This document shows positions 45,092-50,803 of a stretch of DNA of 64,000 nucleotides, piece by piece; within the stretch, counting starts at the first letter, position 1; each line of letters opens with the position of its first letter. Position numbers and translations under genes: made by a program. The notes under the pieces were generated by a model. That model was not told the DNA's origin and ran no database searches. It saw nothing but the letters and a program-made list of their open reading frames with translations. Source of the DNA: a virus (taxonomy: Duplodnaviria; Heunggongvirae; Uroviricota; Caudoviricetes); IMG/VR virus record IMGVR_UViG_3300010882_000011, positions 1-64,000 of that record; one strand, written 5' to 3'.

Positions 45092-45269
45092 GCTATACAG
45101 AATATTGCTGAGATTATATTATAAGGAATTAAAAAATCTTAACCTTGGATATCCTAACGATGAAAAGGCAATAGAACAAATGATGGATCTTATACATGTA
45201 ATAGAATTTACAGAGAGTGGTAATCCTAGCGCAAATGAAATTTTTAAAATATTAGAATACTATGGCTAA
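45084..45269 (+). CDS. hypothetical small protein
   Basis: Track ORF of 61 aa; TAA stop; overlaps its neighbours. Confidence 0.4.
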   Translation: MDKLYRILLRLYYKELKNLNLGYPNDEKAIEQMMDLIHVIEFTESGNPSANEIFKILEYYG

Positions 45270-47355
45270 GGAAACTATGTTTACAAAAGATAGTTCTGAT
45301 ATGCGAAACACACGAACTTTTTATAAAGGAAAATCGTTTAGATATAATTACGAATGGAATGAATTCGGACATTACTCAAATGATGACTTTATTCAGGATT
45401 TTGTTTCGTATAAAGGAAAAATGTACGTGTGTGTCAAAGCAAATGAGGGAATAGTCCCAACTGACACAAACTACTGACAATTCGTGATGGAGGGTCAGGT
45501 TGGAGAACAGGGGGAAACAGGTATTATATTTGTTCCTTTTGTTGACCAACTAGGAAATCTATCATGGTCAAATGATGGTGGCTTACCAAATCCTGCCACT
45601 GTAAATATTAAGGGTGGTAAAGGTGAGGATGGAAGTGATGGAGAAAGTAATTATCAAATTGCATTAAGAAACGGTTTCGTTGGTTCAGAAATTCAGTGGC
45701 TGAACTCACTTAGAGGAAGTGATGGTAGAAATGGTACTGATGGTAAGAACGGATTACAAGGAGTTGGATTACAATATATATGGACTGGAACGCAGCTCGG
45801 AGTAAAACGAGAATCTGATCCTAACTATGTATTTGTTGATTTGCGTGGGCCTCAAGGTATGCGTGGAACAAAAGGTGATTCAATCAAAGGTGATCAAGGA
45901 GATATAGGCCCAATTGGACCTGCAGGCCCATCAATCATGTTGCAAGTATATGGCCCAGATGCTTTTGGGAATATGTTCTTGCAGAAACGCTATAGTCTCG
46001 ATGAACCGTGGGTTAGTTTCTTTGATATGTCTGGTATGCGTGGAGCACCAGGCCGAGATATTATACTTGAGCGTAATCCTAAAACTGGAAACGTTGAATG
46101 AAGATATCAAGACGAACCTGCTACAAGCAATAGAACATTAGTTCCTAGAGGAGACATAATGGGACCTCCAGGTGCTACAATTCTTAAATCCTTTGTTGGA
46201 GATGATGGATTTTTATATATCCAAATATCAACAGAAGATGTTATAAGAAGAGTAGGATATGTTCGTGGAGATCAGGGTGATGATGGTAGAGAAATATTAC
46301 TGAGAATTGATAGTGATGCCAATATAGGCCCAGGTGAAACTGGTACAGGTACTCACTTACAATGGAAGTATGCTGGAGAAAACAATCGCCTGTGGAGAAA
46401 CCTAATTCAAATTAACGAACTTTTCAATATTGCATTAGCAGGATTGAAATTGGAATACGAAGAAATTCCAAAAGTAGTTAATGGGGAAACACGAATGTTT
46501 GATAGACTTTGGCTATCAACATATAATACAGCTTACGATGTTAATGGTAATTTAATTCTAACTGATAAACTTGCAAACATTTCGTATGTTGATGTACCAG
46601 TTAGATTCTTATTACTTGACATAACATATGACGAGGCTGCCAATGAAATGGTACTTCGTTTTCAAACAGCTGACGGTATTGAAATAGTAAGAGTTCCTGT
46701 TAAAATCACAAGAACTTTCTTAGAAATTGATTTGACATCACAGATTGATGGAATCACAGATACTTTTTCAATTCCAGATACTATACAAGAAGGTAGTGCA
46801 ATATCGGTATATTACAATGGACAGCGTCAATTTAACAATGTTCATTATACTGTATCATTTGCAACTAATGAGTTGATACTGGGGTTTGTTCCAGAAATTG
46901 GAGACCAACTATTCATAGTAGTTGGAGACGATTCTGGTGCAATGCCTCCAAGTCCAACACCTTCAATGCCTGAACCTGATGACGATGGCAAAGTATATGG
47001 TCGTCAGAGAAATCCAGGTGAAACAGAAGGACAATGGGTTGAGACAGGAAGTGCTGAAATATTTACTAATTTAGCATTTACACAATCCACACCAATAGAA
47101 GATAGAGAAATCTTTGGGGATAACCCCACAGCTAGAGGAGCCGAAATTAAATATGTTGTTAGACGAGGTTCTTTAGTTCAATTCGGAACACTGTTAATAA
47201 GTAACATAAGCAATTACTTATTAGAGTCAAATGTACACGGAGACGACTGCAATGTATTCTTTGAATTCAATTCAGTTACATATCCAAACGGGCTTAGAAT
47301 CGTTAATAACGGTCTCGGAATAATAAATGTTAATTTTGTAATAACTTATTTGTAA
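45262..47355 (+). CDS. tail fibre protein with collagen-like G-X-Y repeats (~697 aa), 2 TGA
   Basis: Track ORFs 45262..45477, 45484..46101 and 46159..47355 share a frame, joined by TGA. GPQGMRGTKGDSIKGDQGDIGPIGPAGPS is collagen-like; the C-terminus ...NVNFVITYL is shared with the next gene. Confidence 0.6.
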
Positions 47356-47365
47356 ATTTTAAAAA

Positions 47366-48943: not shown

Positions 48944-48950
48944 AATTTAG

Positions 48951-49337
48951 ATGAAATTAACGAGGATAAAGAAAGGCGCGAGAGGCTTGGGGCACTCGAT
49001 TGATGGTGTTAACTACAACATTCATCTTGGCCCCAACACCCTTTCGGGTGACGAAACGGGAAGTCTGCCTAAATGAAACGGAAACGATCTTTATCCAACT
49101 GTTTCATTAAGCTCTACTGATATTGATTTATCAGCACAAATCAATGGAACAAGAACTACGTTTCTATCACCAACAGCGATAGACGAAAATGTGATGCTTT
49201 ATTACAATGGTCAACGACTATTCAAAAATATACATTACACAGTTTCGGTTAATACGAGAGAGATAACTATTGTGACTGCCCCAGACGTTGGGGATGAATT
49301 AATAGCTTCTATTATCACACTTAAATTGAATATATAA
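48951..49337 (+). CDS. tail fibre N-terminal-module paralog (129 aa), 1 TGA
   Basis: N-terminus MKLTRIKKGARGLGHSIDGVNYNIHLG is nearly identical to the start of the next gene. Also carries the YYNGQRLFKNIHYTVS module found in 45262..47355. Confidence 0.45.
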
Positions 49338-50803
49338 TGAAACTGACAAGGATAAAAAGTGGAGTACGTGGGATGGGTCATTCTATTGTGGGGAATGAAT
49401 ATAATATCCACTTAGGTGATAATACTTTCTCTACGGATGAGATAAACAATAAACCACTATGGAACGGTAAAGAAATAGGAGGCTCTGGCGATTTAATGGC
49501 CGAAGTTACCTATTCAGAACTTATGAGTTTGAAAACATCAGAGGAATTAATTCCTGGTATGTTATATAGAATAAAAGACTATAAGACCGTTCACATTATA
49601 CCAAATACAATTGCAACAGTTAATATAGGAACAACTGAAGTTCTTATTGTACTTGCAACTTCTGAATCTACAATTGATATTAGAGCATATTCTGAAGATT
49701 TTCCAACTGACATCATACATTATAACCCCGAAATTCCAACTAATGATGCTTGTTTTACAAGTGCCTTATCAGGAGATTGAAAAGGTTATATAACTTATCG
49801 TAAAGATACAGTTTTCAATAATGAAACTGCTTACGACTTTAGAAATGTGAAATTCAGACGTTGGGATTTCACACTTGGACTAGCTACTACAACAAACTTT
49901 GGAGATTTAGATATAGATGGAAACTATCGATACCAGATAGAGTGAGGTGTAACAAGAACAGTATCACTTGGATGGTCATTATCTAATGTTGTTAATATTG
50001 AACATCATTACAGTGCAAATGGAGTAGATCCGTGAAATTGAGGTTACCTTGTCACTGCTGATTCTTATACAGCTGCACCAGGTAATACTTATACAGATTA
50101 TTTGACGTTCGATGTAGCTAATGCAAGAAATGTTTCAATAGCAGCATTTCCTTTACAGGACAGTTATACAGATGCCGCATCCCGATTAAGTAATATTGTA
50201 TTAAAAGGAGCTTATACAACTAATGTTAAATTAGGTGCACTTTGTTACAATTTAACATTTAATGGGGCAATGGATATAGAAATGCAAAACATGAGTAACT
50301 CATTGTTTGGATGAATGGAAGAGGTAAAACAACATAAAGGATTTACTAATTCCAATAGTGATTGAAATTTTGCACCACTAGGTCTTTATACATGTGTACT
50401 TAACACTGTTTTCTATAAAAACTTCATTATTGGAAATATGCAACAGAATGTATTTGATGTACCTTCAATGTACACATTCGCATTTAATAGTATTATAGGT
50501 GGTTTCAGTAACAATATTATAAACGGATCAGTTAATACTATAACAGTTCTTGAAGGATTCAGCTCAAATAAAATAGGATTATCAAGTGTAGCAAATTCTA
50601 TATTTGTAAACTTCCAACGTAATACTATCGAAACTGATTTCAATTGAACACCAATTGACTTTACTACTCTAACTAATCCAACTAATATTCCTTGAAGTCA
50701 AGGATGAGGTTCTGGAGTAACTTGGTATGCAACTAATTGATTAAAATATGTTGATACAGATACTGGATATGAAAATTTAACTACAGTTAACGAACTTACT
50801 TAA
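49337..50803 (+). CDS. tail fibre / receptor-binding protein (~488 aa), ~9 TGA
   Basis: Track ORFs 49337..49780, 50102..50314 and 50438..50647 are in frame 2, joined by TGA; W-rich (...VDPWNWGYLV..., IPWSQGWGSGVTWYATNWLKY); TAA stop. Confidence 0.5.

What the first reader, a model, noticed from the sequence alone, without database searches (positions are those of the whole stretch)
45262..50803. Modular, mosaic tail-fibre genes sharing exchangeable N-terminal, internal and C-terminal cassettes
Three modules are shared between adjacent fibre genes.
(a) Genes 45262..47355 and 47366..48943 end with near-identical C-termini (...NVNFVITYL / ...DVKFLITYL).
(b) Genes 48951..49337 and 49337..50803 begin with near-identical 27-aa N-termini (MKLTRIK(K/S)G(A/V)RG(L/M)GHSI.G..YNIHLG).
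(c) An internal ~55-aa module (...YYNGQRxFxN(I/V)HYTVS...P..GD.L) occurs both in 45262..47355 and in the short 48951..49337 gene.

This is the signature of cassette shuffling of receptor-binding determinants. The short gene may be a truncated donor cassette.
Basis: seen in the sequence. Interest (0 to 1): 0.55.

Follow-up and report, generated by a model that had tools for sequence, protein, structure and literature searches.

The report
Modular fibre genes of a recoded crAss-like phage
The adjacent fibre genes of this gut-type crAss-like phage really do share protein modules, but these are old, diverged connector domains of a known kind rather than freshly swapped receptor-binding cassettes, so the finding is real but largely ordinary.

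Summary
The three shared segments exist and are far beyond chance (Smith-Waterman z = 14-24; controls about 0). A fourth (gB/gG) was missed. The genes are intact only if TGA is read as Trp; this is a TGA-recoded crAss-like phage of about 170 kb. "Near-identical" is overstated: 78% over 27 aa (N-termini), 47% over 64 aa (internal), 38% over 72 aa (C-termini). DNA similarity is almost gone (longest shared words 8-11 nt; third-position identity 29-48%). These are old paralogous domains, not recent exchanges. The internal module is a widespread ~60-aa domain with the fold of the T4-gp10-like XD2/XD3 "branching" domain. The C-terminal module is a β-sandwich like the distal domains of tailspikes. 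The N-terminal module behaves like the "conserved docking peptide" of branched receptor-binding systems: in a relative it is kept while the rest of the protein is replaced. The short gene has an orthologue in that relative and about ten architectural look-alikes elsewhere, so it is probably a small adaptor, not a truncated donor. No repeats, reverse transcriptase or invertase support an active cassette mechanism. Comparison with relatives does show domain-level mosaicism, with breakpoints at module borders.

The parts
45262..47355 (+). gA, 697 aa under code 4 (in-frame TGA at 45475 and 46099). Layout: N-terminal anchor-like region, collagen-like shaft, central domain, module c, Pro-rich linker with a DGxxYGRxxGxWV motif, module a.
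   Evidence: (collagen/tail-fibre PHROGs)
45262..46704 (+). gA residues 1-481. Conserved in a family of 478-1444-aa proteins (40-51% identity). Homology ends at about residue 480, which marks a module junction.
46711..46929 (+). Module c in gA (aa 484-556): acidic ~60-aa β domain, XD2/XD3-like putative branching or docking platform.
47053..47352 (+). Module a in gA (aa 598-697): C-terminal eight-strand β-sandwich.
47366..48943 (+). gB, 525 aa, no TGA. Contains module d (aa 117-278), a weak PTR-like repeat and module a. Orthologue is P0061 / L007 10001..11473 (41%).
47714..48199 (+). Module d in gB (aa 117-278), shared with gG.
48653..48940 (+). Module a in gB (aa 430-525). It is the best-conserved part of gB when compared with its orthologue.
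48951..49337 (+). gC, 128 aa (TGA at 49074 = Trp). Module b (aa 1-48; 48951..49094) plus module c (aa 53-122; 49107..49316). Putative small adaptor protein. Its stop overlaps the gD start (TAATG).
49337..50803 (+). gD, 488 aa (10 in-frame TGA). Module b (aa 1-48; 49337..49480) plus a 440-aa body that is replaced by unrelated sequence in L007. Putative specificity domain; the β-helix-like repeats are my reading of the sequence only.
56980..57435 (+). Module d in gG (aa 331-482 of the 1720-aa gene 55990..61152).
50805..63045 (+). Rest of the fibre block: gE 50805..52562 (collagen-like), gF 52571..55987 (10 He_PIG Ig-like domains), gG 55990..61152, gH 61213..63045. Followed by gI 63051..63587 (N-terminal hydrophobic segment, DUF6808).

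Best explanation
The region is the fibre-gene block (between portal and the lysis-type genes) of a divergent, TGA-to-Trp recoded crAss-like podovirus. It encodes several fibre or spike proteins built from a shared set of structural connector modules.

- Module b: the basic ~30-48-aa N-terminus of gC and gD. It acts as a docking peptide.
- Module c: an acidic ~60-aa β domain with the XD2/XD3 (T4-gp10-like) fold, present in gA and gC. It acts as a trimeric docking or branching platform.
- Module a: a C-terminal β-sandwich in gA and gB. It is a distal cap or trimerisation domain of the kind that ends many tailspikes.
- Module d: a shaft segment in gB and gG.

The likely assembly is branched. A primary fibre (gA) is anchored by its conserved N-terminus and offers module c. 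Proteins carrying module b (gD, and the mini-adaptor gC, which itself offers another module c) dock onto such platforms.

The shared segments are kept similar by selection on protein-protein interfaces. Host specificity lies in the unshared parts, which are swapped between phages at module borders over evolutionary time.

Shown: the homologies, the folds, the breakpoints and the absence of DNA identity. Inferred: which module binds which, and that the proteins are on the tail.
For: Phage identity and synteny: TerL and portal homology to crAss-like phages. Gene order matches ΦcrAss001: TerL, portal, fibres, lysis.

Module c:
- 87 copies in 54 proteins, single or tandem, at any position.
- Profile hit to the N-terminal region of a solved K1 capsule depolymerase, 9K4A residues 124-169, E = 1.2e-7, with a second copy at 198-233; also hits CBA120 TSP4-N XD2/XD3.
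- Viral fold hits are dominated by Ackermannviridae and Klebsiella tailspikes.
- XD2/XD3 are experimentally shown docking sites for partner spikes (PMC8825819). The branching domain plus ~29-aa conserved peptide pair is validated in KP32/K11/KP34 (PMC13352976).

Module b:
- 21/27 aa identical but only 51/81 nt, which indicates strong protein-level constraint.
- In L007 both paralogues exist, and the gD counterpart shares only residues 2-48 (62%) with a different body.
- Charge complementarity: module b has pI 9.5-10.4, module c pI 4.1-5.4, as described for TSP1/TSP4 XD3.

Module a:
- Always at the extreme C-terminus.
- AF2 model pLDDT 78.
- It is the most conserved part of gB.

gC: orthologue with the same architecture in L007, plus about 10 similar small proteins.
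Against:
- In known systems the branching domain sits just after the N-terminal anchor. In gA it lies near the C-terminus, after a collagen-like shaft.
- Module b has no detectable relatives outside this lineage, so its role rests on analogy.
- ΦcrAss001 shows that genes in this slot can be head fibres (gp21, gp29; PMC10172136), and gB shares a short motif with gp21.
- The module a alignment had only 5 sequences.
Confidence: 0.55

Rival explanations
1. Some or all of these proteins are head (capsid) fibres rather than tail fibres. Module b would then be a peptide that plugs into a capsid hexon pocket, as the N-termini of ΦcrAss001 gp21 and gp29 do. gC would be a small decoration fibre whose Ig-like module c binds mucus or cell-surface glycans.
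For: In ΦcrAss001 the gene right after portal is the head fibre gp21 (docking by residues 1-38). The 118-aa (as described in the paper; the annotated CDS translates to 122 aa) gp29 is an N-terminal anchor plus a β-sandwich (PMC10172136; gene order). gC (128 aa) has that layout. gB 44-67 resembles gp21 34-57 (E = 0.008).
Against: There is no significant homology of gC or gD to gp21 or gp29. The nearest structural and sequence relatives of module c are tailspike and tail-fibre N-terminal docking domains, not capsid decoration proteins. gD is large (488 aa) with a replaceable body, which is typical of tail spikes.
Confidence: 0.17
2. The shared modules are themselves ligand-binding domains duplicated among fibres. 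For example, module a could be a lectin-like tip and module c a carbohydrate-binding Ig-like domain, so several fibres would recognise the same host glycan.
For: Module a is distal and C-terminal with a β-sandwich fold, like tailspike C-terminal domains that are sometimes proposed to bind carbohydrate. Some module c copies give weak CBM_X2 and DUF4183 Pfam hits. Tandem arrays of module c occur in other proteins.
Against: Module a is the most conserved part of gB across phages whose other fibre parts are swapped. That is unusual for a specificity determinant under arms-race selection. The significant matches of module c are to docking domains. The Pfam hits are below curated thresholds.
Confidence: 0.15
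3. One reading: an active or recent cassette-exchange system, in which gC is a truncated silent donor used to replace receptor-binding segments of neighbouring fibre genes by recombination.
For: Modules recur in adjacent genes. Crassvirales are known to diversify fibres, for example by DGRs in the Zeta group (PMC12386605).
Against: - Longest shared nucleotide words are 8-11 nt; third-position identity is 29-48%; more than half of identical residues use different codons.
- No repeats longer than 42 nt and no meaningful inverted repeats in 44-64 kb.
- No template-like match between the fibre block and anywhere else in the window.
- No RT or recombinase motifs.
- gC is intact, translationally coupled to gD, and has an orthologue in L007.
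Confidence: 0.03

Closest known systems
Branched receptor-binding protein systems of Klebsiella podoviruses (KP32, K11, KP34): anchor, T4gp10-like branching domain, and N-terminal conserved docking peptide (PMC13352976)
   Same: A ~60-aa β domain with the XD2/XD3-type fold is present. A second protein's short conserved N-terminus is followed by a freely replaceable body. Anchor/branch-only proteins without a specificity domain are known there (my recollection of KP34-type RBP1, not checked here) and resemble gC.
   Different: There is no sequence homology of module b to the Klebsiella conserved peptide. In gA the branching-like domain is near the C-terminus, after a collagen-like shaft. gC combines a docking peptide and a branching domain in 128 aa. 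The host phage is a recoded crAss-like virus. Interaction is untested.
CBA120 (Ackermannviridae) TSP1-4 complex and T4 gp10 XD2/XD3 domains (PMC8825819)
ΦcrAss001 fibre apparatus: gp21 and gp29 head fibres, gp22 tail fibre docking by residues 1-26 (PMC10172136)
   Same: Same genomic slot after TerL and portal. The same principle applies: short N-terminal peptides dock fibres into hubs or pockets. Small anchor-plus-β-domain proteins occur there too.
   Different: No significant sequence similarity apart from a 24-aa motif shared by gB and gp21. This phage has a ~170-kb genome, uses code 4 in its late genes, and has a much larger fibre block.
Classical mosaic tail-fibre genes (conserved N-terminus, variable C-terminus) evolving by horizontal exchange
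   Same: Sharp homology breakpoints occur at domain borders: gA ~106 and ~480, gD ~48, gH 206/484.
   Different: Nothing essential. This is the general evolutionary pattern that the locus follows.

Membership tests
Branched RBP system (anchor / T4gp10-like branching domain / conserved docking peptide) | A ~60-residue β domain with the XD2/XD3 (T4 gp10-like) fold in a fibre or spike protein | tested here: met
Branched RBP system (anchor / T4gp10-like branching domain / conserved docking peptide) | A secondary RBP begins with a short conserved peptide followed by an exchangeable specificity domain | tested here: met
   gC, gD and the L007 161-aa and 380-aa proteins share only the first ~48 aa. 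The gD body is replaced in L007.
Branched RBP system (anchor / T4gp10-like branching domain / conserved docking peptide) | The conserved peptide physically binds the branching domain | not testable with these tools
   Only charge complementarity is available: module b pI 9.5-10.4 against module c pI 4.1-5.4. No multimer prediction tool was available.
Branched RBP system (anchor / T4gp10-like branching domain / conserved docking peptide) | The primary RBP has a conserved N-terminal virion anchor | tested here: inconclusive
   gA 1-106 is conserved (49% to the L007 1098-aa protein; 40-51% over residues 1-480 in P0004-P0010). Attachment to the virion is not shown, and there is no homology to T7 gp17-N or to ΦcrAss001 gp22.
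Crassvirales (crAss-like phages) | crAss-type TerL and portal with the conserved structural gene order | tested here: met
   TerL hits 131 crAss-like or Bacteroidota phage records: 47% to MT835470 and 28-29% to cr1_1 and others. Portal has a P22_portal Pfam hit. Gene order matches ΦcrAss001. MCP and RNAP lie outside the region examined.
Late-gene TGA-to-Trp recoding (code 4) in gut phages | In-frame TGA at Trp positions, confined to late or structural genes | tested here: met
   No TGA in any convincing − strand (early) gene at 1-27.8 kb; a few short − strand ORFs there that carry 1-4 in-frame TGA overlap other ORFs and I did not treat them as genes. 0-12 per gene in the + strand block from 28.4 kb. 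TGA aligns with TGG-Trp in relatives.
Late-gene TGA-to-Trp recoding (code 4) in gut phages | Phage-encoded suppressor tRNA(UCA) | tested here: not met
   ARAGORN finds only Met, Glu x2 and Pro in the window. About 106 kb of the genome was not examined.
Active diversification systems (DGR, invertible fibre segments such as Gin/Cin, silent donor cassettes) | Template/variable repeat pair plus reverse transcriptase; or inverted repeats plus invertase; or DNA-identical donor segments | tested here: not met
   No repeats longer than 42 nt, and only weak inverted repeats. No match between the fibre block and the rest of the window. No RT or recombinase motifs, including the GxxxSP variant. Shared words are at most 11 nt.
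ΦcrAss001 head fibres gp21 / gp29 | Sequence homology to gp21 or gp29 | tested here: not met
   Only gB 44-67 vs gp21 34-57, E = 0.008; nothing for gC or gD. The architecture of gC is similar (anchor plus β domain).

The most novel reading that the evidence does not exclude
This deep-branching, recoded crAss-like phage assembles a multi-layer branched fibre using a lineage-specific docking peptide (module b) and XD2/XD3-like platforms. These include a 128-aa "peptide + platform" extender (gC) that can daisy-chain further spikes. In addition, the ratio of synonymous Trp codons (TGA vs TGG) records which fibre genes were recently imported from standard-code phages: gA, gB, gE, gF and gG at 19:51 against core late genes at 28:8. 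That would give a built-in timestamp of horizontal fibre exchange in recoded phages.
Probability: 0.25. Interest if true: 0.5.

Novelty: new member of a known kind. Interest (0 to 1): 0.3.

Why it matters
[quoted passage not shown] If the branching-domain plus docking-peptide logic validated in Klebsiella and Ackermannviridae phages also organises crAss-type fibres, three things follow. It tells annotators which parts of these orphan proteins are connectors and which are specificity domains. It gives breakpoints for engineering. It also shows why the genes must be read with code 4 to be seen at all. In itself, module sharing between neighbouring fibre genes is expected phage biology.

Tried and rejected
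- Table-11 reading: the genes fragment. Rejected in favour of code 4.
- DNA and protein searches of gA-gD against INPHARED phages: no hits.
- The closest TerL relatives, MT835470 and MT835539, carry no homologues of gA-gD.
- Word-indexed protein searches: gA fragment gave self plus one hit; gD N-terminus gave self only; the module a profile gave nothing, not even self, so I treat that result as uninformative.
- PDB sequence searches with whole gA, gB and gD: nothing.
- Pfam and PHROGs on gB, gC and gD: nothing useful.
- Module b in IMG/VR and JGI metagenome contigs: nothing.
Only the module c part was modelled.
- Context of unrelated gC-like small proteins: contigs too short, and no shared leader with neighbours.
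- DGR, invertase and donor-cassette hypotheses: rejected.
- Pseudogene hypothesis for gC: rejected.
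Full report
OBSERVATION. Frame-1 translation shows that every internal stop is TGA (2, 1 and 10 respectively) and that all four genes end in TAA. In-frame TGA occurs only in the + strand block from about 28.4 kb onward. None of the convincing − strand genes at 1-27.8 kb contains one; a few short, overlapping − strand ORFs there do carry 1-4, and I did not treat them as genes. The TGA in gC aligns with a Trp in gD. TGAs in portal and TerL align with TGG-Trp codons in standard-code relatives: portal 4/4 and 3/4, TerL Trp or aromatic residues. 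The genes are therefore real under code 4. I call them gA (697 aa), gB (525), gC (128) and gD (488).

The three claimed similarities are significant:
- gA 626-697 vs gB 456-525: 37.5%, E = 1e-9.
- gC 1-110 vs gD 1-107: E = 7e-18. The first 27 aa are 21/27 identical, and the first 48 aa are 63% identical.
- gA 488-551 vs gC 57-118: 47%, E = 3e-15.

Smith-Waterman z-scores against shuffles are 14.3, 24.4 and 22.1. Unrelated pairs score between -1.0 and 0.8. A fourth module was missed: gB 117-278 vs gG 331-482 (42%, E = 2e-24).

AGE OF THE SIMILARITY. At the DNA level almost nothing remains. The best blastn hits are 76.6% over 47 nt and 71% over 87 nt. Third-codon-position identity is 29-48%. More than half of the identical residues use different codons. 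The gC/gD N-termini share 51 of 81 nt, and the longest shared words are 8-11 nt. There are no direct repeats longer than 42 nt in 44-64 kb, and only weak inverted repeats. The fibre block matches nowhere else in the window, and no RT or recombinase motifs were found. So these are old paralogous domains held similar by selection on the protein. They are not substrates or products of recent cassette exchange.

WHAT THE PHAGE IS. TerL (39459..41744) matches crAss-like phages: 47% to MT835470, 38% to MT835539, and 28-29% to cr1_1 and others. The same sequence sits on ~170-kb contigs. The gene order TerL, portal, fibre-type genes, membrane/lysis-type gene mirrors ΦcrAss001 gp19-gp28. Late-gene TGA-to-Trp recoding is already described for crAss-like phages (PMC7886860; PMC12386605).

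WHAT THE MODULES ARE. An exhaustive HMMER search with gA 300-697 found 86 proteins. Mapping them gave three results.
- gA 1-480 defines a family (40-51% identity) in which homology stops at about residue 480, followed by unrelated C-terminal parts of 300-960 aa.
- Module c is a widespread ~60-aa domain: 87 copies in 54 proteins, single or 2-4 in tandem, at any position. About ten proteins of 83-146 aa consist of a short leader plus one module c.
- Module a is rare and always at the extreme C-terminus: P0013, P0024 and the gB orthologue P0061.

Module b has no detectable relatives outside this lineage.

COMPARATIVE TEST. L007 is a 115-kb contig of a relative (TerL 75%, portal 78-81% identical) and carries the syntenic block:
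- A 1098-aa protein sharing only gA 6-106 (49%).
- A separate 265-aa gene equal to gA 490-697 (modules c + a).
- A gB orthologue (41%).
- A 161-aa gC orthologue with module b (1-48) and module c (95-151).
- A 380-aa protein sharing only residues 2-48 with gD (62%).
- No gE or gF.
- Mosaic gG and gH counterparts.

So the locus is truly mosaic, with breakpoints at module borders. The b-paralogue pair predates the split of the two phages. The short gene is a conserved gene.

MECHANISM. The anatomy matches the experimentally validated branched receptor-binding-protein design: anchor, T4gp10-like branching domain, and a ~29-aa conserved N-terminal docking peptide on the secondary spike (PMC13352976). 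Module b is basic (pI 9.5-10.4) and module c acidic (pI 4.1-5.4), which echoes the TSP1/TSP4 XD3 complementarity.

I therefore propose that the shared modules are assembly connectors and that the unshared bodies carry specificity. On this reading, gC is a mini-adaptor made of a docking peptide plus a platform. Which module binds which, and tail versus head location, are inferences. ΦcrAss001 precedent (gp21 and gp29 head fibres) and a gB/gp21 motif keep a head-fibre reading alive.

SIDE OBSERVATION. Under code 4, TGA and TGG are synonymous. Core late genes use TGA:TGG at 28:8, whereas gA, gB, gE, gF and gG use 19:51 (Fisher p = 1e-6). gD, gH and gI resemble the core. In L007 the fibre genes are TGA-rich. 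This fits more recent import of several fibre genes from standard-code sources, and is independent support for mosaic origin.

VERDICT.

Noticed in passing
window 1-64000 (− strand genes 1-27800; + strand genes 28450-63587): Stop-codon recoding is strand- and block-specific. The convincing − strand (early-type) genes have no in-frame TGA, while + strand late genes have 0-12 each. No suppressor tRNA is found in the window; the only tRNAs are Met-CAT 8162-8235, Glu-TTC 17361-17433 and 17612-17685, and Pro-CGG 23130-23203.
   Followed up: partly
window 39459-63587: Synonymous Trp codon usage is heterogeneous. Core late genes use TGA:TGG at 28:8, against 19:51 for gA, gB, gE, gF and gG (p = 1e-6). 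gD is 10:4 and gH 5:2. The relative L007 has TGA-rich fibre genes. This may be a marker of recently imported fibre genes.
   Followed up: partly
window 29342-32578: A 1078-aa + strand protein has 12 TGA and no TGG. By eye it contains a DD-peptidase-like HxxxxxD...HxH motif near the N-terminus and a muramidase-like C-terminus, so it may be a virion-associated lysin or cargo protein. Not tested with any tool.
   Followed up: no
window 1-172: The only notable DNA repeat in the whole window is 1-64 vs 109-172 (89% over 64 nt), at the very edge of the window.
   Followed up: no
L007 2469-4931 and L003 10001-12463: In the relatives the portal gene is split into two ORFs (421 + 321 aa) separated by about 230 nt. 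The window has a single 739-aa portal ORF. This may be a small intron or insertion, or an assembly frameshift.
   Followed up: no
window 52571-55987 and 63051-63587: gF carries 10 He_PIG Ig-like domains (E = 2e-85). gI is a 178-aa protein with an N-terminal hydrophobic segment and DUF6808 (E = 3.5e-23), sitting where ΦcrAss001 has lysis regulators.
   Followed up: partly
window 47495-47566 (gB aa 44-67): gB shares a "PYxLPxATxxTxGGV" motif with the ΦcrAss001 head fibre gp21 (E = 0.008). The L007 gC orthologue carries a similar "PATNTTLGGV" insert. A "DGxxYGRxxGxWV" motif recurs in gA (aa 566-600), the gG N-terminus and several database proteins, in varying positions relative to module c.
   Followed up: partly
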